This document shows, in pieces, positions 45,866 to 57,674 of a stretch of 64,000 bases of DNA. The position numbers and the translations under genes are program-made. The first letter of the stretch is position 1. Each line of letters starts with the position of its first letter. The notes beneath the pieces are model-generated. The model saw only the letters and a list, made by a program, of their open reading frames with translations. It ran no database searches and was not told where the DNA came from. The stretch lies in the IMG/VR virus record IMGVR_UViG_3300020219_000012, positions 36,343 through 100,342 of that record, one strand, 5' to 3'. This DNA is from a virus.

Positions 45866-46882
45866 CTACTTGGCTTTCTTCTTGCGGTACTTCAAGATCT
45901 TGCCAACCAGGGCCGACTTGCCACCCGGCAGCTTGGAGGCGCCAACGATCTTGCACGGGCCGGCGGCGTACTTGCGCAGGTCGGCGAGCGATTCGTTCAT
46001 CAGGTCCTTGCCGCTGAGCCTGGCGAACCGACGGGCCTTGTTGTAGGCGGCCTTGCCCTGGTCGCTCACATGAACAGCTTCAGCGCGCACGTCGGCGGGT
46101 TCGTCGTGGGCGCTGTCACCTTCACGCCACTCCTCATCGTCATCTTCGTCGATTTCCTCGCTGTGCACGGTGGACGACAGCAGCCCGCCAGCATGGTGGC
46201 CGATGACCTTGTACTCACAGACCCGCATCTTGCGATAGCTCTCGTCGTTGGGCACGCAGACCACGTGCTCGGGGTCGACCTCGCAGATCACCACGGCCCC
46301 GTCCGAGTGGAAGCTGTCGGCATACGAGAGGTCGCCGACGTGATAGCCGAAGTGACAAGCCGTCTGCGGGTCGTCGGAGACGAGGTTTCGCTCCATCCGG
46401 TTGACCACGCCCGGCGAGTTGTCGACCTTGCCTGTGTAGCAATCCGTGAGGTCCGCCTTGACGCCCTTGTAGGCCAGGAAGGTGCCGTCCTTCTGAAGCG
46501 GAATGCCCGAATGCTGCAGGAAGTTGAAGAGCTGGTTCACCGACCGGTGGCTCGGGTTCTTGGCCAGCCGCTCATAGAAGTTGAACACGGGCTCGGGGCT
46601 CTCGCCCTGGGCTGCCATCTCGCGGATGCGACCCTGGATGGAAATAGGCAGCGGTTCACCGTCATAGAAGATCTTGCCGTCGGCGCTCGCCGCGAACCGA
46701 CCCTTGGCCCACTGTGCCAGCGAGCCTGCCAGGGTCAAGCTGCGGACCACGCCGTCCCAGTCCTCGGACAGCACCGCGCTATGGATGGCGCTGTACTGAA
46801 TGGAGCCCTTGAGAAAGGTGTGGGGGGTGCCGGCGTGGATGACGGTCGCAGACTCATGAGTGATCGTGAAGGCGGGGCGCAT
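45866..46882 (-). CDS. T4 rIIB-like protein
   Basis: LAKNPS, DGTFLAYKGV, CHFGYHVG and KMRVCEYKV; adjacent to rIIA. Confidence 0.85.
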   Translation of the reverse strand: MRPAFTITHESATVIHAGTPHTFLKGSIQYSAIHSAVLSEDWDGVVRSLTLAGSLAQWAKGRFAASADGKIFYDGEPLPISIQGRIREMAAQGESPEPVFNFYERLAKNPSHRSVNQLFNFLQHSGIPLQKDGTFLAYKGVKADLTDCYTGKVDNSPGVVNRMERNLVSDDPQTACHFGYHVGDLSYADSFHSDGAVVICEVDPEHVVCVPNDESYRKMRVCEYKVIGHHAGGLLSSTVHSEEIDEDDDEEWREGDSAHDEPADVRAEAVHVSDQGKAAYNKARRFARLSGKDLMNESLADLRKYAAGPCKIVGASKLPGGKSALVGKILKYRKKKAK

Positions 46883-48986
46883 GGTTCTTGGCTTTCTTGG
46901 CGGCGCGAGCAGCGTCCGCCTGGGTGAGCTTGTGGTTCGAATCGACGAGCTGAACGTAGTCCATCCAGATTCCGGGGTTGCCGGTGCCGGTGGGATTCCA
47001 GAGCGAAGAGATCCCTACGTGCGCAAAGAGTGGGTAGCGATCCAGGATGGCCTTGAGTTCTCGAGCGGCCTCCGAATCCCCTGGGCGGATGTTCAGGCGC
47101 TTCGTCAGGTCGGTCAGGACGGCAGCCTTGTTGGCGCCCAGTCCCTGGACGACCTTCGCGGCGTGGGCGTGGCGGGTATATAGCCTGTTGATCGAATGCT
47201 GGTCGCCCAGGTCATTGACCATCGCAGCCAGGCGCTGACTGCTCGGCGCACCAGGGCGATGGCTATAATGGCCATGGATATTCTCGCGCTCGAGGCGGGC
47301 CCACTGTAGCTCGACGATGAGATCGGGGAGGTCGGGGGTGCTATCCAGGATCTGCTTGGCCAGATCCTTGCGCCAGACCCGGTATTCGGTGCCAACGACC
47401 AGGGCTGGGTTGATCGGTTTTTTGTCGGTGGTCTTGTAGCCATAGACCTTCGGCATCGTGAAATCGAAGGCTCTGCAGAGGGCATCGTCGGCGATGTAGT
47501 CGGGATAGAAGTCCCTGTACTGGTCCGCCTTGAAGTTGTGGGTCACGACGTACACGTCACCCTTGTCGGGCACCCGTGACTCGGTATCCCAGTGGGCCGA
47601 GTAAGGATTCTTGTAGTGAGTTCTGGGGATGAGCTTGAAAGTAGAGACCTTGTGCTTGGGGTTGTTGACCTTCTTGGGCTTCTTGTAGGGCGCGGTATAC
47701 GGGCAGATCGAGAGGAACTCGACCCGAACGCCGACCATGCCCGAGGCCTCGATGGCCGCATCGAGGGCGATCTTGGCCTCGCCGAACGTCTTGCCCGGGG
47801 CGGGCCGAATCACGTAGTCGTTGAACGCCAGGCGATAGCCGACGAGATCCTCGCCGGTGTCATCGATTAGGAGGCGGACGTCCTTACTGACCGATATGCG
47901 GGTCGAGGCCGACCGGTTGTGGACCAGGCTGAAGTCCGCCGCGTCGTAGATGAGCTTGACGTGGGGGTCGGTGATCTCATTCCAATCCTCAGGGAACGGC
48001 AGCTCCAGGGTGTTGAGCACCTGAGCCCGCAGACGCATCTCCCAGGGAGAGATGCCGGCACCGCCGAGTGAACCCAGCGTGTGCTGGACGAACTCGTCGA
48101 CCAGGTCGTTGATCTTTTCGACCAGCGCCGCCTTGGTCCGATCGGTGTACTTGAGCTCTTCGCGGGATGCCGAGACCTGCACCTCGCCGATCCCGAAGAA
48201 GAGCGACCCTGAGATCCTGGGCATGAACTTGCCCAGCTGGTCCCGCGGCAGCTGGTCGATGTTGACCCGGTAGGGCACGCAGCCCATGACTGCGATCCAG
48301 CGGGTAGATCCGCCCTGGTCGGCCGTGCACAGGCTGCCGTGGGTCAGGATCGTGCTGGCCTCGGGAATGGGGGGCAAGATGATGTTGATGGCCGGCCGGG
48401 GGCTGTAGTGCTGAAAGAGCTGTGACGCCTTGGTGTTGAACTCGTGGACGTCGGCGGGGCGCGTGGCGATCTGGATCTCGATGCCGGTCTCGGCGGATGG
48501 CTCTTCGTGGACGAGCTGGATCTCACCCTTGTCGGATGGGTCGAGCACGGCAATATAGATTCGCTTCACCCCGCCATGGTGGCTGATGACCGTGAATGAG
48601 TCCGAGTAGGCAAAGCCGGACTTGGACCCGATGCCCAGCATGCCGACGGCATCGTTGGTGCCACGGCGCGTGGAGGCGCCGTACTGAGTGTAGATCTCGA
48701 ACACCTCGTCGCGGGACAGGCCCTTGCCGTGATCGCGCACCGTGAACAGCGGTTCGTCATAAGTCGGAACATGGATCTCGATCGGCCGATCGGCTATCCC
48801 GGCCTCGCGATGTGAGTCCCAGGCGTTGCTCGAGTACTCGCGCAGAACGGCTAAGATCTTGTCGGAGTAGATGCCCTCACGGAGCAGGCCCATGATGTGG
48901 GGGGTGTCCTTGTGGGAGATACCGAACGAGGCGCTCGCCGTCGAACCACTGCTATGAATGGCTCGCTGGTCGTCGGATGGCTTCAT
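46854..48986 (-). CDS. T4 rIIA-like GHKL ATPase
   Basis: IYSDKILAVLREYSSNAWDSH, DHGKGLS and GMLGIGSKS. Confidence 0.85.
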   Translation of the reverse strand: MKPSDDQRAIHSSGSTASASFGISHKDTPHIMGLLREGIYSDKILAVLREYSSNAWDSHREAGIADRPIEIHVPTYDEPLFTVRDHGKGLSRDEVFEIYTQYGASTRRGTNDAVGMLGIGSKSGFAYSDSFTVISHHGGVKRIYIAVLDPSDKGEIQLVHEEPSAETGIEIQIATRPADVHEFNTKASQLFQHYSPRPAINIILPPIPEASTILTHGSLCTADQGGSTRWIAVMGCVPYRVNIDQLPRDQLGKFMPRISGSLFFGIGEVQVSASREELKYTDRTKAALVEKINDLVDEFVQHTLGSLGGAGISPWEMRLRAQVLNTLELPFPEDWNEITDPHVKLIYDAADFSLVHNRSASTRISVSKDVRLLIDDTGEDLVGYRLAFNDYVIRPAPGKTFGEAKIALDAAIEASGMVGVRVEFLSICPYTAPYKKPKKVNNPKHKVSTFKLIPRTHYKNPYSAHWDTESRVPDKGDVYVVTHNFKADQYRDFYPDYIADDALCRAFDFTMPKVYGYKTTDKKPINPALVVGTEYRVWRKDLAKQILDSTPDLPDLIVELQWARLERENIHGHYSHRPGAPSSQRLAAMVNDLGDQHSINRLYTRHAHAAKVVQGLGANKAAVLTDLTKRLNIRPGDSEAARELKAILDRYPLFAHVGISSLWNPTGTGNPGIWMDYVQLVDSNHKLTQADAARAAKKAKNHAPRLHDHS

Positions 48987-49498: not shown

Positions 49499-52400
49499 TC
49501 AGAACGGCGGCTTTTTGCCCGAGCGGGGCTTTTCATCTTCGAACACGGGCATGGGGCCCGCGTAGAAGTCATCGAGGGGCTCGAGCACCTCGCTGCGAGC
49601 CACAGCGGCAAGCCCGCCGCTCGCAAATGCCTCGCCCAGGTTGCCCCGGAAGTTGGTCGTGGCCTTCGACAGCTCTTTTAGGTAGGCATTGAAGGCCTGG
49701 CTCTTTCTCCAGATCTTGTGGTGTCGGTAAATGAGCCCCTTCTGGTTCAGGAACCGCCACAGTCTGTCCATGTCATCCTTGGGCAGGTTCAGGATGTCGG
49801 TCAAGGTTGGCTTGGTGATGAAGTCAGCTTGGTTGAGCAGGTCGATGACCACCTCGGCCTCATCGAACGACATCAGCATCTTCTTGATGGCCGAACGTCG
49901 CTCGTCGGTCAGGTTGTTGACGTCCTTGTGCTTGCGCGCGTACTCGAAGTACGCCATCGCCGGCTTGCGGTAGTTCCAGTCCATGAAGTCCGCCGCAAAG
50001 TTTACGTGCTCGATGGTGACCAGCACCTTGCGAGCATCCTTGTCAGTCGAGAACAGCCGGGCCGCAACGCTGGCGGCGATGCGGGCGATCTTGAGCCGCA
50101 GGTCTGACTTGTACGCCAGGGGCACGTCGCAGTCGTAGACCTCGCCCATCTCGCGGGCATGGAAGGCGATGCGCTCCTCGGCCTCCTCGGAGAACTCGAC
50201 GTGGTGAGGCTCGCGCGACCACACCCACAGCAACAGGCTGTGGCACAGGTCCGCGGTGTAGTTGTGCTTGAGCGCCGACGAGGTCCAGCGCCGGTTGATC
50301 ATCTCGCTGCTGACCTCGGACTTCTCCGCGACCACGGCCAGGTCCACGCGGCGCAGGTCCGAACCCTCCTTGAACATCTTCATCACGGCGCGGATGCCGC
50401 TGTTGTAGTCCGAGAGCTGGCCTTGGCCCTCGCGCGGGTTCGACAGGAAGATCATCCGGGTGCGGGCCCAGGTTTCATGGCCAACGCCCGTGCCCTGGGC
50501 GATCGCCCGGCCGTCACTGCGCACCTGGGTCAGCTTCTGGACCTCCTCCATGGGAATGCCCGAGAACTCATCGATGACCAGGAGGCGCCGATCGTTCTGC
50601 GGGATCTTGCCCCATTGCACCGTCCATTGGCTATTGATCTGGACCAGGGCAAATAGCAAGCCTGTGCGACTGGCACCCTCGCCCGCGGTCATTTCGCCCA
50701 GGCCGTAGTGCTGGATCATCCGGTCGATCATCGTGCTCTTGCCGGTGCCGGTGTCGCCGACGACGAGCAGCTCCCACCAGCCCTTGCGCACCCACTTGCC
50801 ATCCAGCTTGAAGCCGATGACCGAGTGGTAGCAGAGGTCTACCGCGATGGAGAGGTCCATGCGGCCGCCGATCTGATGGACGTTGGCGGTGAGGTCGGCA
50901 TGGATCTCCTGGAGCTTGTCCTCGACGCTCTGGCCCTCGCGCGGTCGAAACAGCTTGAGACTCTCGTAGTGGTCAGCCGTCATCACGAACTGGTCGACGT
51001 CGTTCTGCGCAGGCTCGGCCTTGTCGAATAGCAGGCAGACTCGCTGGTCCTTGGGGAAGTTGAAGACCGAGGCCTCGACCATGTACTTGCGGTTGGGCTG
51101 CAGGCCATGGCCCATGAAGAACGCCCGCTGCACCACGTGCTTGACCGCCTTGGTGGTACTGCCCTCCTCTTCGGCAGGAGCGTCGGGCCGTACCGAGGTC
51201 TGCTCCTCCATGTAGATCTGCGCGTAGTCCACCATCGGGATGAGCTGCACCTCCTCGAGGTTGGTCTGCTCGTCGTAGGTGATCCGGTTCTTGAAACACT
51301 TGGGCTGGATGCGGCAAAACGATCGGACATGTGACGTCTTTTCGTTGTTGTTGACGCCGATGAGCTCGAGCACCTTGGCGTCCTCCGCGGAGAACACGAA
51401 CTGCAGCTTGCCGTTCGCCCCGTTCTTACCCAGCGCGCAGTCGTCGCAATACTTGCCGTTGTCGACCCCGCAGGTCACCTTGCCGCGCAGCGGGATGCCG
51501 AACGGCGCGGTGGCCTTGGCCGCCACCTGCACCGGGGTCCGCACCTTGGTGCCAAGGTAGCAACCGCGACTGGCATCCGAGAGGTGCACCGTGGGGACCT
51601 CGGCCGGATCCTGATCCGACACGTTCTTGATCCAGCTGCACTTGTCCGCGCCCACACAGGCAACCTTCTCCTCGCCCGTCTTGCCCCCGTTCGCACGGAT
51701 CATCCGGCAGCTGAAGTGGAGGCTGCCGGCATAGCCCGTGTTGACCACCGAGGCTGCGTTGAGCAAGCGCCCCGGTAGCTCAGTCGGATTGGGAAAGTGC
51801 TTCTTGGTCCAGTTGGCCATCAGGTGGTTGGCCTCCTGCTTGTCGATGCCAGCGTCCACCATGAACCCAACCATCGGCAGGATGACCTTGTTGCGGTTAG
51901 GCCCGGTCGGCTTCATGCCGTTCTCGAGCATGTCCTTCATGCAGACCGGAAAGTCTGAGTCGCCGGTCAGCGGGCGGGAGATCTTGGCCCGCGGACGCAG
52001 CCGGTCCATGTCGAGGCGGACCTCGTAGAGGTCATGGAACTGACGCCACCAGGTCACCGCCTCATCGAGCGGCTCGATGTTGCTGTACTCGTGCGGGCTC
52101 CACACGTGGCTGACCGGCAACGCTTCCTCGGAAGGGAAGTCAGTGCGCGGCTCCTTGGCCCGGGTGCGGATCGCCTTGGCATCCCAGTCCAGGAGCTCAC
52201 GGCAGGTCAGCTCGTACTTGAACAGGTTAGAGCCCGCGTGCGACGAGTTCGGGATGCGCCACTGCCGGGCCCGCGAATAGACCGAGCGGTCCAGTGTCGG
52301 GATGTCCAGGTAGTCGGCCAGCTGCAAGACCGCCATCTTGACGATTGCCGTCAGGTGCCGGTGCGGAGTGATGCCGAACACCTCGGGCCGCACGATGACG

Positions 52401-52873
52401 TGGAACCCCTTCTGCCCCGAGTACCAGCACTGGATGTGCGACTGCTTGACCCCAAGGGTCATGAACCAGGAAACCACCTTCCGCGCGTCTGCCAGGCTGG
52501 ACCGCACTGAACGCATGAGCCGTTCCTCCTGGTCGCCGGACTCGTCTTCCTTGGGCTTACAGTCAAAGTCGAAAAATACGCCGTTGTAGTGCATCTGGGA
52601 CTCGGCGAAGTCCTCGTGCGAGGGCGTGGGCACGGAACCCCGTGAGACCTCCTGTGCTGCTTCCTGCGCGGCCTTACGCTCTGCCTCCAGGGTTGAGACG
52701 GCGTCCTTGAATCGTTGCACTGTGGTGAAGCACTGGACGTTGCCGGAGGGCACGACGATCCGGCTCCGGATGTCGGAGATCTTGTACCGGTGCCACACGG
52801 TGAATCGGCCTGGAACCTTGGCCAAGCCATAAGTGCCATCCACGTAGATATAGGTTTTCGAGAATTCGCTCAA
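49499..52873 (-). CDS. AEP primase - MCM-family helicase fusion
   Basis: FDFD, SGQKGFHV, DRSVY..WRIPNS (AEP); Cys-rich linker; GDTGTGKST, ASRTGL, IDEF, SNP, RVDL (MCM AAA+). Confidence 0.85.
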   Translation of the reverse strand: MSEFSKTYIYVDGTYGLAKVPGRFTVWHRYKISDIRSRIVVPSGNVQCFTTVQRFKDAVSTLEAERKAAQEAAQEVSRGSVPTPSHEDFAESQMHYNGVFFDFDCKPKEDESGDQEERLMRSVRSSLADARKVVSWFMTLGVKQSHIQCWYSGQKGFHVIVRPEVFGITPHRHLTAIVKMAVLQLADYLDIPTLDRSVYSRARQWRIPNSSHAGSNLFKYELTCRELLDWDAKAIRTRAKEPRTDFPSEEALPVSHVWSPHEYSNIEPLDEAVTWWRQFHDLYEVRLDMDRLRPRAKISRPLTGDSDFPVCMKDMLENGMKPTGPNRNKVILPMVGFMVDAGIDKQEANHLMANWTKKHFPNPTELPGRLLNAASVVNTGYAGSLHFSCRMIRANGGKTGEEKVACVGADKCSWIKNVSDQDPAEVPTVHLSDASRGCYLGTKVRTPVQVAAKATAPFGIPLRGKVTCGVDNGKYCDDCALGKNGANGKLQFVFSAEDAKVLELIGVNNNEKTSHVRSFCRIQPKCFKNRITYDEQTNLEEVQLIPMVDYAQIYMEEQTSVRPDAPAEEEGSTTKAVKHVVQRAFFMGHGLQPNRKYMVEASVFNFPKDQRVCLLFDKAEPAQNDVDQFVMTADHYESLKLFRPREGQSVEDKLQEIHADLTANVHQIGGRMDLSIAVDLCYHSVIGFKLDGKWVRKGWWELLVVGDTGTGKSTMIDRMIQHYGLGEMTAGEGASRTGLLFALVQINSQWTVQWGKIPQNDRRLLVIDEFSGIPMEEVQKLTQVRSDGRAIAQGTGVGHETWARTRMIFLSNPREGQGQLSDYNSGIRAVMKMFKEGSDLRRVDLAVVAEKSEVSSEMINRRWTSSALKHNYTADLCHSLLLWVWSREPHHVEFSEEAEERIAFHAREMGEVYDCDVPLAYKSDLRLKIARIAASVAARLFSTDKDARKVLVTIEHVNFAADFMDWNYRKPAMAYFEYARKHKDVNNLTDERRSAIKKMLMSFDEAEVVIDLLNQADFITKPTLTDILNLPKDDMDRLWRFLNQKGLIYRHHKIWRKSQAFNAYLKELSKATTNFRGNLGEAFASGGLAAVARSEVLEPLDDFYAGPMPVFEDEKPRSGKKPPF

Positions 52874-53912: not shown

Positions 53913-54861
53913 GCGGCACCAAAGACCGCCCCGTACTTCTGGCAGACCTCGAGCGGCGACTCCTCGAACTGGGCGTAGAAGGCGCGGGTGGCGGCTGCGG
54001 CCGCGAGGCCCTTGGGGTATCGGCAGCCGACCTGGAGGACGAGGTTGACCCCGTCGTCCAGCTTGCGGAACAGCCGCAAGGCGGCGACCCCTTCCTCGTT
54101 GAACAGGGGCGCGCCGTCACCGCCGAACAGCTTGACGGTCTCGCCGGTGTCCATGACGACCAAGATCTGCTCGCGCAGGTAGTCGAAGCGCCAGCCGGCA
54201 TCGACCAGGGCCTTGGCCGCGCCGGCCCAGGCGTCTTCGGATTCAGGCTCGGCCAGGCAAACGATCAGCACTTCACTCGCGCGGGCTCCTTGCATGTTCC
54301 AGAACGGGTGATAGAGCGACAGCTGGTGTTGCTTGAGGACGGGCATGACGTGTTCGTCAAGCCAGGCCTTCTTGTCGAAGTCGGTCATGTGGACTCCGGG
54401 TTGTAGGGGATTTGTTCGCCGAGGCCGGTGGTCTGGATCCAGGGCTGGTGGCCCGCCAGCACGGCCTCGAGATAGGCGGCGATGCGAGCATTGCCCGTAC
54501 GCTGCGGGTAGTGGACGACGCCGAAGTAGTGGAGAGACCGAACCGCGCGATAGGCGCAACCCACGACGCAGAGCACCTTCTCGGGCGCCGGTGGATGAGT
54601 GACGCAGCCAGTGCGGGTTTTGGCGTCGAGCTCGGCGGTCTCGAGCTCGGCAACCTGGCTGGCATGGGCGAGCGCATTCTTCAAATCCGACGTGGTCCAA
54701 GCCGTCATGGGCACGTAGCCTCCTTGGCTCATGGTTGGCCGGCGACCCTGCGCCTCGCCACGAGGGGCCGTCAACCAAACGCTTCCGGAAATCTCTAACC
54801 TCCGGAATGCTCGTGACGTGTCTTGTGGTGCGACGAGGAGAGCTCCACAACAGCTTGTGGT

Positions 54862-55296
54862 TCACCTGGGATGCAGGTGCGCCTTCTCCGATGCTGTCTG
54901 TTCTGCGTTGTCGAGGATCACCTGCGCGGCGTCTTCGCTGACGTTGAGCGACTGGGCGCCGCTGCGAATCAGTTCCTTTATCTGAGACTCATCCATGATG
55001 CCGATGCAGAGCGAGAGCATGTCGGCGAACTTCACGACGTCCGATGCGGAGCCGGCCGCGTTGTACATGTCGATCTCGAGGGCGCAGATCTTCTTCATGA
55101 GCGACGGAGTTATGTGACCCGCGAGCAGGACGTCGCTGAGCAGCGGGCCGAGGAGCAACGGCTCACTGGCCACGGTTGGCGCATAGCACCTGATGAGTCG
55201 CAGGTGCTCCTGCGCGAGTCCGGGCTTGAACTCGTTGAGCTTGGGGAAGCGGGCGGTGACAGAGAGAAGGATGTCTAGATCGGTCCGTTTTGGCAT
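54862..55296 (-). CDS. Hypothetical protein
   Basis: AAGGA RBS; preceded by GGCATAAG. Confidence 0.55.
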   Translation of the reverse strand: MPKRTDLDILLSVTARFPKLNEFKPGLAQEHLRLIRCYAPTVASEPLLLGPLLSDVLLAGHITPSLMKKICALEIDMYNAAGSASDVVKFADMLSLCIGIMDESQIKELIRSGAQSLNVSEDAAQVILDNAEQTASEKAHLHPR

Positions 55297-55325
55297 GTGG
55301 ATTCCTTTTCAGAATCCTTATGCCT

Positions 55326-55346
55326 AAGAAAAGCGGGGCAGCCCGC
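55326..55346 (-). terminator. Terminator closing the GGY-NN array
   Basis: GCGGG-CTGC-CCCGC-TTTTCTT. Confidence 0.65.
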
Positions 55347-55528
55347 CAGTCCTCGCCGGCCACGCCCAACCTCGCCAGCCCTGCCTTGCCGCGCCCGACC
55401 GAACCTAACCCGACCTAACCCCGCCAGCCTGACCGTGCCATGCCATTCCCAGCGCAGCCTGACCGCGCCGAACCTAACCCTGCCAGCCTATCCTCATCAT
55501 GCCTCACACCGCCGAGCCTCGCCTTGCC
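55343..55528 (-). ncRNA. GGY-NN pentamer repeat array (putative guide RNA precursor)
   Basis: 34 pentamers (28 begin GGC/GGT) with variable dinucleotides, split by 4-nt GGCT/GGCC steps; starts 10 nt after a stop codon and ends at a terminator. Confidence 0.8.
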
Positions 55529-55537
55529 ATCTGAAAA

Positions 55538-56011
55538 CTACGCGGCTTGCTGTGCTTCTGCGATGAACTGCGTGACGTTGGCCAAGAGATTGTCGAGCTC
55601 TCCCTCGAGCCCGAGCACCTGAGCGATGGCCCGGCTCCGCGTCACGATGCCCTCGATTCGAGTGAATTCGCGTTGCAGGGTTTCGAGCGCACGTTGCCGA
55701 TCGTTCACCAGGCTTACTGTCTGCACGTACCCCGCTTCACGTTGATCCGACGGATCATGCACATAGGCCACCACCGAAACGGTCCTACGGTCCACGGTGG
55801 CGTTGATCTTCACGGAGCGAATGAGGGTTCGCGCCTGGTCGAGTCGCCTCTCGTGCGCCGCCCGGGTGTCATCCCAGGTGAACGCATCATGCAGCGGGCT
55901 AGTGACCGGACGAGCATCCTCGATGACCAACTCAGGAACGAGTCGTCCTCCCCCCAGCTGGGTCAACTCCGCTAGACGTTTGGCAATCGCTTCCCTTTGG
56001 GCGAGCGTCAT
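55538..56011 (-). CDS. Conserved partner of the RAMP-like gene
   Basis: GRLVPELVIEDARPVTSPLHDAFTWDD..RLDQARTLIRSV; 3 nt after the RAMP-like stop. Confidence 0.75.
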   Translation of the reverse strand: MTLAQREAIAKRLAELTQLGGGRLVPELVIEDARPVTSPLHDAFTWDDTRAAHERRLDQARTLIRSVKINATVDRRTVSVVAYVHDPSDQREAGYVQTVSLVNDRQRALETLQREFTRIEGIVTRSRAIAQVLGLEGELDNLLANVTQFIAEAQQAA

Positions 56012-56014
56012 GGA

Positions 56015-56845
56015 TTAGGCCTCCACTCCGTTGCTGGTGATTTCCTGCACCTTGGTCTTGGCCCGACCGTTGGCCGTGGCCGGTGCAAACGACCGGTGCT
56101 TACCGACTGCGTCGAGGTACCAGGTGTAGAGCTCCTCGGTCTCTTCGTTGGAGAAGTTCGGCTCCTTCATGCCAGCGAGCTGCACATCGCGCCCACCCTC
56201 CGCCACGATGCGCTGATAGTCGGGGTCATCTGAGCCGGCGATATTGAACAGCCCGTAGTTGCCGGCGCCCTTCTCGTTGCGATAGTCGCCGATGCCGATG
56301 TACATGCCAGCTGCCGCCAGGAGGTTGGCCACCGACTGCAGCTGGAGCTGCGGCATCACGTACGACACTGTGATCGAGCACGCCCACTCCTGCATGTAGC
56401 AGCGGGTCCGCACATCCGGCGCCCGGTTCATGCCGGCCTGCCGGACGATCCGCATATCGAGCTGGGGTATGCCGAAGATGTCGATGCGATCACCGACCAC
56501 CCACAGCATGCGACCGACCTCGGCCTTGCTGACGCCCGGCAGGTCGAGCGCCGCTGCCCGCATCGCTCCGCGGAACGCGGATGAGAGGTGCTGCACGAAC
56601 GTCGGCCCCTCCTTGTTGTTGAAGTAGATGGAGCTCTGGTACTCCTCGAGCGGGCGGTGCTTGAGCGAGGACTTCTTGTCGGCCTCGGTCTTGCGCCCCA
56701 TCGGCAGGAGCAACTCCTGCTTGGTCTTGTTCGACAGGCAGTTGTGCAGCATGGGCGTCGTGCCCACGAGATGGAACGTAGCCTTCCCGCGCTCGACGTT
56801 GATGATCTGAACTTCGCCCGACTTTTCGTTCGCCTTGGTCGCCAT
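56015..56845 (-). CDS. Solo RAMP (Cas7/Csm3-like) RNA-binding protein
   Basis: GGAGA RBS; LVGTTPMLH, SSAFRGAMRAAA and Gly-rich loop GIGDYRNEKGAGNYGLF. Confidence 0.75.
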   Translation of the reverse strand: MATKANEKSGEVQIINVERGKATFHLVGTTPMLHNCLSNKTKQELLLPMGRKTEADKKSSLKHRPLEEYQSSIYFNNKEGPTFVQHLSSAFRGAMRAAALDLPGVSKAEVGRMLWVVGDRIDIFGIPQLDMRIVRQAGMNRAPDVRTRCYMQEWACSITVSYVMPQLQLQSVANLLAAAGMYIGIGDYRNEKGAGNYGLFNIAGSDDPDYQRIVAEGGRDVQLAGMKEPNFSNEETEELYTWYLDAVGKHRSFAPATANGRAKTKVQEITSNGVEA

Positions 56846-56925
56846 TTTGTTTCTCCAGTGAATGTGTGGGAGCGTTATTGCTCTATTCCACTTATGCCTG
56901 GAGCGATTGAGTGAAGTGCCAGTGA

Positions 56926-56963
56926 CTAAAAAAGAAAAGTCACCGAGGTTGCCCTCGGTGACT
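56926..56963 (-). terminator. Strong intrinsic terminator
   Basis: AGTCACCGAGG-GCAA-CCTCGGTGACT followed by TTTCTTTTTT. Confidence 0.85.
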
Positions 56964-56965
56964 AG

Positions 56966-57016
56966 TGGACCTGCTGGGACTCGAACCCAGGCCTCGTCGA
57001 AACCAAGGGCCGACCC
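56966..57016 (-). ncRNA. Mini RNA resembling the tmRNA tRNA-like domain
   Basis: GGGTCGG-CCCTTGGTTTCGAC-GAGGC-CTGGG-TTCGAGT-CCCAG-CAGGTCC-A; G3:U70 and A73. Confidence 0.5.
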
Positions 57017-57035
57017 TACCATGGTCGGATTATTG

Positions 57036-57674
57036 TCAGTCGAATCCACCCAGCATCTCGCTCACTGATCGGAACTTGCGCCCCGCGATGACGATGTGGT
57101 CAACCATGGGAATCCCGACCAGCTCGCCCACCGCCTGCACGCGCCGGGTCAAGGCCATGTCCTCTTGGCTGGGCGTGGGGTCCCCGGTCGGGTGGTTGTG
57201 GGCGATGATGCAGCCCGCGGCCGAGATGCGAATGAGGGGCCGGAAGATTTCCCGGGGATGAGCCTCGACGCCGTTCAGGGTCCCCCGGGCCACCTCAATC
57301 TCGGCAATGACCTGGTTTCGGGCGTTGAGCGCCAGCACCACGAACACCTCCTGTTTGAGCCCGGCGAAGAACCCCTGGAGCCGGTCGAACACCGACTGCG
57401 GGGTGGATACTACCCCTAGTGTCCGGCAGGTCATTGCACGCCGACCCAGCTCGAAGATGGCCGCCGTCTTGCGGGCGCCGACCCCGCCCACGGCCTGCTT
57501 GAGCTCGAGGTGCGGGGCCCGGCCGATGGCCTCGATGTCACCGACCCCTTCCAGGAGCCGGTCGCTGGCGCGCGTCCCCAGGGCCAACGCCAGGAGGTCC
57601 TTGTCTGACAATTTATCAATCACCCGCGGGCTCCTTCTTTGTGGGGCTCGTCTGGTCTGGATCTGTTTGGTCAC
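57036..57674 (-). CDS. radC: RadC-like JAB-domain protein
   Basis: LSDKDLLALAL, QEVF, HPREIF, AHNHPTGDPTPSQED and DHIVI. Confidence 0.9.
   Translation of the reverse strand: MTKQIQTRRAPQRRSPRVIDKLSDKDLLALALGTRASDRLLEGVGDIEAIGRAPHLELKQAVGGVGARKTAAIFELGRRAMTCRTLGVVSTPQSVFDRLQGFFAGLKQEVFVVLALNARNQVIAEIEVARGTLNGVEAHPREIFRPLIRISAAGCIIAHNHPTGDPTPSQEDMALTRRVQAVGELVGIPMVDHIVIAGRKFRSVSEMLGGFD

What the first reader, a model, noticed from the sequence alone, without database searches (positions are those of the whole stretch)
55343..55528. The pentamer array is organised into discrete units carrying a readable NN code
Seen (- strand): units are delimited by a one-base-short step (GGCT or GGCC). U1 55528-55485 has NN = AA GA TC GG GA AT GA TA. 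U2 55484-55426 has AG TA TC GC CA TG TG AT AT AC CA. U3 55425-55377 has GG TA CG TA TC CG GC AA AG. U4 (GA TG GT) and U5 (GA CT GG) are short and run into the terminator. The triplet is conserved while NN is diverse, unlike a slippage microsatellite, and a period of 5 fits coding poorly. Inference: three full guides of 16-22 informative nt, processed at the GGCT-GGC junctions, plus degenerate trailer units.
Basis: partly seen in the sequence, partly recalled or inferred. Interest (0 to 1): 0.85.

Follow-up and report, generated by a model that had tools for sequence, protein, structure and literature searches.

The report
Phage VIPR guide-RNA array (staggered)
The five-base repeat tract is the guide-RNA array of a VIPR system, a CRISPR-like RNA-guided DNA silencer of phages first described in 2026 preprints; it is a new example of a known kind, and two of its three full guides spell conserved motifs of integrase and DnaB-helicase genes of other phages.

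Summary
On the minus strand, 55528-55343 is a tract of 34 GG(C/T)NN pentamers. Four one-base-short steps (GGCT x3, GGCC x1) cut it into units of 8, 11, 9, 3 and 3 repeats, and it runs into a terminator.

It is the vrRNA array of a VIPR system (bioRxiv 10.64898/2026.04.26.720920, .720927 and 2026.10.15.759431), in the 'staggered array' architecture of fig. S18.

- The upstream 276-aa gene folds as a Cas7-type RAMP and keeps the GGY-binding residues of the solved SUSP1 Vipr.
- A vipr-vap gene pair is present in 80 of 80 related viral loci. About 67 of them show same-strand arrays with the same GGC-N-GG step, and units are mostly 8-12 repeats.
- Under the published one-base-skip rule, U2 matches 25 viral contigs at 18-20 of 22 NN positions. 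All hits lie antisense to the MMQ(Q/H)WADYL motif of P4-type integrases, with the skipped base at the wobble position.
- U1 spells KESG(E/D)IEY of DnaB-family helicases.
- No target was found for U3, and there is no self-target.
- Cleavage at the steps is untested.

This scan has already noted such loci in at least 116 other genomes.

The parts
56938..56963 (-). Strong terminator-like hairpin (11 bp stem plus T-run) that closes the upstream RadC gene and insulates the VIPR operon
56015..56845 (-). vipr: 276-aa RAMP (Cas7-like) protein, phrog_4652
   Evidence: PHROG hit. A profile of 29 homologues hits PDB 36pp 'SUSP1 Vipr protein' at E = 1.2e-4, with R148, D187, Y188 and R189 aligned to SUSP1 R138, D177, W178 and R179. 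AF2 model pLDDT 85. Top Foldseek hits are Csm3, Cmr4, type VII Cas7 and Cas7-11, E about 2e-5, probability 1.0.
55538..56011 (-). vap-like accessory gene: 157 aa, phrog_15946, no Pfam family. The model shows a winged-helix-like N-terminal part plus a C-terminal helical hairpin.
   Evidence: A homologue lies next to vipr in 80 of 80 related loci.
55489..55528 (-). Guide unit U1, 8 repeats. It reads [KN][ED]SG[ED][IM][ED]Y in the sense direction.
55485..55488 (-). One-base-short step GGCT (unit boundary)
55430..55484 (-). Guide unit U2, 11 repeats. NN1-9 are antisense to codon positions 1-2 of M-M-Q-[QH]-W-A-D-Y-L.
55426..55429 (-). Step GGCT
55381..55425 (-). Guide unit U3, 9 repeats, all with canonical GGY. 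No target found.
55377..55380 (-). Step GGCT
55362..55376 (-). Short unit U4 (3 repeats), followed by the step GGCC at 55361-55358
55343..55357 (-). Short unit U5 (3 repeats). Its last repeat is part of the terminator stem.
55325..55347 (-). Terminator-like hairpin (6 bp, 5 GC) plus T-run that ends the operon

Best explanation
The tract is the vrRNA array of a phage VIPR system (Viral Interference Programmable Repeat), in the 'staggered' architecture.

Transcription (inferred): vipr, vap and the array are read as one minus-strand unit, from just after the terminator at 56963-56938 to the terminator at 55347-55325.

Filament (by homology to the solved SUSP1 complex): Vipr protomers coat the RNA, one per pentamer. 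They bury each GGY triplet using the thumb Arg and the G-loop Asp-aromatic-Arg, and expose each NN pair.

Punctuation: the one-base-short GGC-N-GG steps break the five-base register. One transcript therefore gives separate guide units of 8, 11 and 9 repeats, plus two 3-repeat units. Whether the break is an RNA cut or only a gap in the filament is not known.

Targeting: each unit reads double-stranded DNA by pairing its NN pairs with two of every three target bases, so it reads codon positions 1-2 of a protein motif whatever the synonymous changes.
- U2 reads the C-terminal MMQ(Q/H)WADYL motif of P4-type tyrosine integrases of temperate phages, on the antisense strand.
- U1 reads the KESG(E/D)IEY motif (H4 region) of DnaB-family helicases and primase-helicases of other phages.
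- The target of U3 is unknown.

This phage replicates with an AEP-MCM protein, and the part of its genome that is held has neither gene class, so it would not target itself.

The expected outcome is transcriptional silencing of competing mobile elements, as shown for type II VIPR, with the Vap protein as helper.
For: Identity of the system:
- The literature defines VIPR as Vipr + vap + GGY/NN vrRNAs with a 1-nt skip rule and staggered arrays.
- Vipr membership rests on the PDB sequence hit with conserved GGY-contact residues and the RAMP fold.

Conservation across relatives:
- vipr-vap is present in 80 of 80 IMG/VR loci.
- Same-strand arrays were found in about 67 of the 80 loci, against at most 12 GG in a chain on the other strand.
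- At 142 distinct steps the sequence is GG, then C in 95%, then A 69% / T 17%, then GG. The regular NN positions are near-uniform.
- Internal units peak at 9 repeats, and 62% have 7-12.

Targets:
- U2 NN1-9 (18 fixed bases) gave 25 IMG/VR hits, all in one motif of proteins with Arm-DNA-bind_3, Phage_int_M and Phage_integrase domains. The skipped base falls on codon position 3, and the full guide matches 18-20 of 22.
- These integrases are diverse: 18 clusters at 90% identity, median pairwise identity 47%.
- Patterns of equal information gave 0 hits (U2 NN3-11) and 2 hits in one gene (U3).
- In 401 bacterial genomes the full U2 pattern with up to 3 mismatches gave 12 hits, against 3 for the reversed pattern. 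At least 9 of the 12 lie in the integrase motif.
- U1 gave 33 hits. In 21 of them NN falls on codon positions 1-2 of the longest open frame, and at least 12 are in the DnaB motif. All seven of these proteins that were tested carry DnaB_C.

Self-avoidance:
- There is no self-match of 80% or more in the phage's own genome, and no DnaB_C or Phage_integrase match in it. Its replicative protein is MCM-type.

Cross-check of the code within this clade:
- A guide of locus L039/L041 matches 16 of 16 NN, wobble-aligned, in a methyltransferase gene next to vipr of the related phage L051. The phage's own orthologue matches only 12 of 16.
Against: - No RNA data exist: the only public runs that hold this DNA are DNA metagenomes of microbial mats. 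Expression, RNA ends and binding by Vipr are therefore inferred.
- The full U2 pattern (22 bases) has no exact match in any collection. The mismatches lie at the 3' end of the guide, where SUSP1 R-loops start.
- The U1 pattern has only 16 fixed bases, and about 10-20 chance hits are expected at that size. Its purine-rich first codon positions also favour in-frame hits.
- U3 gave only chance-level hits.
- The U1 and U2 targets never lie on the same element.
- A test of 318 guides from related arrays against 1.15 Mb of held DNA showed no enrichment over shuffled guides. That database is too small to be decisive.
- Similarity to the solved Vipr covers only 47 residues.
- The host and the true local targets are unknown, and the genome record is only about 55% complete.
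Confidence: 0.9

Rival explanations
1. The tract is a periodic protein-binding RNA without guide function. It would be a sponge or attenuator bound by a ring or multimeric RNA-binding protein that recognises spaced triplets, as TRAP does with (G/U)AG repeats or CsrA with GGA motifs.
For: Conserved triplets with 2-nt variable spacers are also the layout of a TRAP-binding site (own knowledge). The tract lies in an mRNA 3' region before a terminator.
Against: The adjacent conserved protein is a RAMP with the GGY-contact residues of Vipr, not a TRAP- or CsrA-type protein. A pure binding site does not explain the one-base steps with a fixed sequence and units of 8-12 repeats. Nor does it explain NN strings that spell conserved codon positions 1-2 of integrase and helicase motifs.
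Confidence: 0.03
2. The tract is a DNA-level element: a G-rich minisatellite, a G-quadruplex-prone region or origin iterons, with no RNA role.
For: GG every five bases could form two-tier G-quadruplexes (own knowledge). The tract is non-coding.
Against: The array is always on the same strand as vipr-vap and next to it in about 67 of 80 relatives, while its NN content is not conserved. The NN positions are near-uniform, unlike slippage repeats. The published biochemistry shows that such tracts are RNAs bound by Vipr.
Confidence: 0.02
3. It is a VIPR array, but the integrase and helicase matches are coincidences. The real targets would be unsampled elements of the microbial mat, or the guides would be decoys or remnants.
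For: No full-length exact match exists for U2. U1 has only 16 fixed bases. The hits to one motif are homologous, so each guide's cluster is statistically one event. Named phages with related integrases match only 15-16 of 22.
Against: 25 hits against 0-2 for patterns of equal information, and 12 against 3 for the reversed control. The skipped base is in the wobble register in all 25. A recombinase is also the experimentally shown target class of SUSP1 VIPR (abstract of 10.64898/2026.10.15.759431).
Confidence: 0.25

Closest known systems
VIPR systems with 'staggered vrRNA arrays' (bioRxiv 10.64898/2026.04.26.720920, main text and fig. S18 legend)
   Same: Phage-encoded two-gene operon (RAMP-type vipr plus a small accessory gene), followed by a continuous tract of GGY/NN pentamers. 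Successive vrRNAs are offset by one base, with no structured tail and no ribozyme between them.
   Different: The paper gives only a schematic for this architecture and did not confirm it by small-RNA sequencing. Added here are the step consensus (GGC, then A > T, then GG), the unit-length distribution and predicted targets. The window uses the minority step GGCT. The VIPR type (I-VII) could not be assigned without the paper's tree.
Type II VIPR of Escherichia phage SUSP1 (PDB 36pp; bioRxiv 10.64898/2026.04.26.720927 and 10.64898/2026.10.15.759431)
   Same: The thumb Arg and the G-loop Asp-aromatic-Arg that hold G1 and G2 of GGY are kept. Guides have 8-11 repeats, against 9-16 in SUSP1. The one-base-skip code is aligned with codons, and a recombinase gene of a competing element is a target.
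   Different: The protein is 276 aa rather than 202, and is alignable by sequence over only about 47 residues. There is no conserved 3' tail or pseudoknot after each guide and no upstream vrRNA. The predicted targets are integrases of whole temperate phages and DnaB helicases, not a satellite.
Class 1 CRISPR-Cas backbone proteins (Cas7, Csm3, Cmr4)
   Same: Same RAMP fold, the best structural matches. These proteins also form one-protomer-per-repeat filaments with a thumb that flips bases periodically.
   Different: The locus has no CRISPR repeat-spacer array and no other cas genes. The guide is non-contiguous (2 of every 5 RNA bases) rather than 5 of every 6.

Membership tests
VIPR system | Vipr protein: minimal RAMP with RRM core, glycine-rich loop and thumb | tested here: met
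   AF2 model at pLDDT 85 with a long beta-hairpin at 120-164. All top Foldseek hits are Cas7-type RAMPs, E about 2e-5. The G-loop reads IGIGDYRNEKGAGNYG (invariants).
VIPR system | Residues that bind the GGY triplet (SUSP1 R138, D177, W178, R179) | tested here: met
   The profile alignment to PDB 36pp_D places R148, D187, Y188 and R189 at these positions. R148 and R189 are invariant and D187 nearly invariant in 29 homologues.
VIPR system | Adjacent vipr-accessory (vap) gene | tested here: met
   A 157-aa gene lies directly downstream, and a homologue lies next to vipr in 80 of 80 loci. Its equivalence to a published vap1-6 family could not be tested.
VIPR system | vrRNA: at least 4 tandem YNNGG/GGYNN repeats next to vipr, with conserved GGY and hypervariable NN | tested here: met
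   34 pentamers, 28 of them GGY, with 14 different NN. Across related loci the third base is C 66% / T 20% and the NN positions are near-uniform.
VIPR system | Target recognition by the one-base-skip rule | tested here: inconclusive
   The support is bioinformatic only. U2 gave 25 hits against 0-2 for controls, and 12 against 3 for the reversed pattern. U1 clusters in a DnaB motif. U3 found nothing.
VIPR system | vrRNA is expressed and co-purifies with Vipr | not testable with these tools
   No RNA run holds this DNA.
VIPR type II (SUSP1 clade) | Each vrRNA ends in a conserved structured 3' tail (pseudoknot) | tested here: not met
   Units follow each other directly, separated only by 4-nt steps. 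The tract has no notable fold, z = -0.78. Only one terminator hairpin follows the last unit.
VIPR staggered-array architecture | Successive vrRNAs offset by one base within one continuous tract | tested here: met
   Four steps of 4 nt instead of 5. The same feature occurs at 142 distinct steps in related loci.
VIPR staggered-array architecture | RNA processed at the unit boundaries | not testable with these tools
   No RNA ends are available. The paper states that only the ribozyme and single-vrRNA architectures were confirmed by sRNA-seq.
CRISPR-Cas | Repeat-spacer array with identical direct repeats and adaptation genes | tested here: not met
   No such repeat family lies around the locus, and the neighbouring genes are RadC, vipr, vap and unknowns. 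The whole genome was not scanned for cas1 or cas2.

The most novel reading that the evidence does not exclude
The one-base-short GGC-(A/T)-GG step may be a new kind of punctuation for guide RNAs. A register shift alone, with no hairpin, ribozyme or dedicated nuclease, would split one transcript into independent Vipr filaments, or set where host RNases trim it. The guides would then act as broad 'protein-motif readers': an MCM-using phage with no integrase in the part of its genome that is held could silence whole classes of competitor genes (DnaB-type helicases, P4-type integrases) rather than one particular rival.
Probability: 0.3. Interest if true: 0.6.

Novelty: new member of a known kind. 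Interest (0 to 1): 0.4.

Why it matters
The class itself is no longer new, so the value lies in the details.

- This locus and its roughly 67 relatives with detectable arrays give a sequence definition of the 'staggered' vrRNA architecture, which the discovery paper only sketched and did not verify by RNA sequencing. The definition covers the step consensus and a unit length of 8-12 repeats.
- The locus offers concrete, testable natural targets: a C-terminal integrase motif and a DnaB helicase motif, both read in the codon register. This extends the published idea that VIPR guides track codon periodicity so that synonymous mutations cannot give escape.
- It suggests that a phage can aim such guides at gene classes that were not found in the part of its own genome that is held.

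Tried and rejected
Database and family searches with no useful result:
- Rfam scan of 54800-56100: only sub-threshold noise.
- blastn of the locus against 50,697 phage records: no match.
- tblastn-style locus search with the single Vipr protein: none.

Target searches at or below chance:
- Exact one-base-skip scans for full U2 in the viral, genome and metagenome collections: 0 hits.
- Full U3: 2 viral hits (one tail-fibre-like gene), 2 metagenome hits (one gene) and 3 MAG hits. All are in low-GC DNA with the skipped base off the wobble position. About 17 hits would be expected in 596 Gb under uniform composition.
- U3 NN2-9: 9 hits with no cluster.
- Near-matches of U1 and U3 in ten records that carry the U2 target: chance level. 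One 15-of-18 U3 hit lies in an ambiguous reading frame.
- 318 guides from related arrays against 1.15 Mb of held loci: no enrichment over shuffled guides at any skip size.
- Named phages with related integrases (Stenotrophomonas S1, Achromobacter AchV4, Alcaligenes Piluca, Rhodobacter RcSalem) match U2 at only 13-16 of 22.

Vap:
- No Pfam or PDB sequence relative.
- Foldseek gave only weak winged-helix-type rows, E above 0.3. The wide structural search was dominated by the C-terminal helical hairpin.

Sequencing runs:
- No RNA holder is listed. Contigs of four microbial-mat DNA runs laid on the locus showed no variation in the array.

Other:
- ARAGORN found no tRNA or tmRNA at 56800-57150.
- My first idea, a TRAP- or CsrA-like binding RNA, was dropped once the Vipr match appeared.

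Full report
**Observation**

The minus strand of 55528-55343 was read and parsed by script. It consists of 34 five-base repeats GG(C/T)NN. Four four-base steps (GGCT at 55488, 55429 and 55380; GGCC at 55361) cut it into units of 8, 11, 9, 3 and 3 repeats. The last repeat is part of a terminator-like hairpin at 55347-55332 with a T-run.

Thirty-one of the 34 repeats start with GG and 28 are GGY. The NN positions use 14 of the 16 dinucleotides. A chain of 36 GG at spacings of 5, 4 or 10 compares with 6 for the next best place in the 100,342-bp genome, and with 7-12 in 20 shuffled genomes. The RNA has no special fold (z = -0.78), and Rfam has nothing for it.

**Context**

The window is the last 64 kb of a 100-kb phage record with 63% G+C, from microbial-mat metagenomes. 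CheckV estimates the record at about 55% complete. On the minus strand the order is:
- a RadC-like gene (57674-57036);
- a strong terminator (56963-56938);
- a 276-aa gene (56845-56015, phrog_4652);
- a 157-aa gene (56011-55538, phrog_15946);
- the array and its terminator.

Nearby lie an AEP-MCM primase-helicase and rIIA/rIIB homologues.

**What it is**

A profile of 29 homologues of the 276-aa protein hits one solved structure, 'SUSP1 Vipr protein' (PDB 36pp, E = 1.2e-4). That led to three 2026 preprints on VIPR systems. In those systems:
- A minimal RAMP protein (Vipr) polymerises on a vrRNA made of GGY/NN pentamers, one protomer per repeat.
- It buries the GGY and presents the NN pairs.
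- The NN pairs bind double-stranded DNA while skipping every third target base.
- The result is transcriptional silencing of competing mobile elements.

In the alignment, the SUSP1 residues that hold the two guanines (R138, D177, W178, R179) correspond to R148, D187, Y188 and R189 of the window's protein. R148 and R189 are invariant and D187 nearly invariant among the homologues. The AF2 model (pLDDT 85) is matched in the PDB only by Cas7-type RAMPs: Csm3, Cmr4, type VII Cas7 and Cas7-11, at E about 2e-5. The Foldseek library predates the Vipr entry.

The discovery paper also lists, beside tailed type II vrRNAs and ribozyme-separated arrays, 'staggered arrays with overlapping vrRNAs'. Its fig. 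S18 legend says that individual vrRNAs derive from positions overlapping by one nucleotide. That is the one-base-short step seen here. The paper states that only the other two architectures were confirmed by sRNA-seq.

**Conservation**

Eighty IMG/VR loci encode a homologue of the protein. All 80 also have a homologue of the 157-aa gene beside it. About 67 have a GGNNN array on the same strand, usually just after the second gene and in a few loci between the two genes. The opposite strand never exceeds 12 GG in a chain.

Over 142 distinct steps the sequence is GG, C (95%), one base (A 69%, T 17%, G 7%, C 4%), GG. In 1,552 regular repeats the third base is C 66% / T 20% / A 12%, and both N positions are close to uniform. 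Units between steps peak at 9 repeats, and 62% have 7-12. The step is therefore a conserved punctuation mark, and the window's 8-, 11- and 9-repeat units are typical. Its GGCT is the minority form.

**Targets**

There is no self-match of 80% or more at skip 1 in the phage's own genome: the best scores are 13/16, 15/22 and 14/18.

*U2.* The full pattern has no exact match in the viral, genome or metagenome collections. Its first nine NN (18 fixed bases) hit 25 viral contigs.
- All 25 hits lie antisense to the codons of M-M-Q-(Q/H)-W-A-D-Y-L near the C-terminus of 400-470-aa proteins. The three tested carry Arm-DNA-bind_3, Phage_int_M and Phage_integrase domains.
- The target bases that vary among hits are the skipped ones, which are the third codon positions.
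- The full guide matches 18-20 of 22 positions, above the 80% cut-off used in the paper.
- The integrases are diverse: 18 clusters at 90% identity and a median pairwise identity of 47%.
- Patterns with the same information gave 0 hits and 2 hits in one gene.
- In 401 bacterial genomes, the full pattern with up to 3 mismatches gave 12 hits, against 3 for the reversed pattern. At least 9 of the 12 are at the integrase motif.
- Relatives of these integrases sit in temperate phages of Pseudomonadota. Those with a different motif variant score only 15-16 of 22.

*U1.* This pattern (16 fixed bases) hit 33 contigs.
- In 21 of them the NN pairs fall on codon positions 1-2 of the longest open frame.
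- At least 12 are the KESG(E/D)IEY stretch of DnaB-family helicases or Toprim-DnaB primase-helicases. All seven tested have DnaB_C.
- This is weaker evidence: roughly 10-20 chance hits are expected at 16 bases, and the pattern's purine-rich first positions favour coding frames.

*U3.* It gave only chance-level hits.

*Other checks.*
- The held part of the phage genome has no DnaB_C and no Phage_integrase match.
- The U1 and U2 targets were not found together on one element.
- Within the clade, a guide of L039/L041 matches 16 of 16 NN, wobble-aligned, in a methyltransferase gene next to vipr in the related phage L051. Its own orthologue matches 12 of 16. By itself that has about a 0.08 chance expectation.

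**Mechanism and its status**

- Shown here by sequence: the anatomy, the conservation, the RAMP fold, the conserved GGY-contact residues and the motif-level matches.
- Taken from the literature: the filament, the one-base-skip pairing and silencing.
- Inferred: co-transcription of the array with vipr-vap; that the register shift separates filaments or directs cleavage; that U4 and U5 have any role; that Vap binds DNA. The Vap model shows a winged-helix-like N-terminal part and a helical hairpin, but without significant structural matches.

**Novelty**

The kind is published, and this scan has already noted such loci in at least 116 other genomes. This is a new member. The added value is a sequence definition of the staggered punctuation and two predicted target classes.

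Noticed in passing
L039:2971-3010 (same guide in L041) against L051:2687-2709: A guide of one related phage matches 16 of 16 NN, with the skipped base on the wobble position, in a SAM-methyltransferase-like gene just upstream of vipr in another related phage. Its own orthologue (84% amino-acid identity) matches only 12 of 16. This looks like targeting of a relative's allele while sparing self.
   Followed up: partly
L046:4282-4849 and L042:4300-5033: In some related arrays the unit boundary is a nine-base piece, GGC(A/G)GTCNN. That is the four-base step followed by a first repeat that starts GTC instead of GGC.
   Followed up: no
L013, L014, L018, L021, L040 (related loci): In a few relatives the array lies between vipr and the vap-like gene rather than after it.
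   Followed up: no
window 56926-57028, minus strand: A stretch with a tRNA-like T-arm (GGTTCGAGTCC) lies between the RadC gene end and the strong terminator. ARAGORN calls nothing there, and Rfam was not run on this stretch.
   Followed up: partly
window 49499-52873, minus strand: A 1124-aa primase-helicase with an MCM P-loop domain (phrog_18685). The nearest phage relatives are at only about 28% identity (Bacillus and Microbacterium phages).
   Followed up: partly
window 45866-48986, minus strand: rIIA-like (710 aa) and rIIB-like (338 aa) genes lie side by side.
   Followed up: no
window 55296-55326, minus strand: Just after the array terminator, an inverted repeat GGATTC-7 nt-GAATCC covers the ribosome-binding site of the next gene (ATG at 55296). 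An 8-base motif GGCATAAG also occurs at 56898-56891, upstream of vipr.
   Followed up: no
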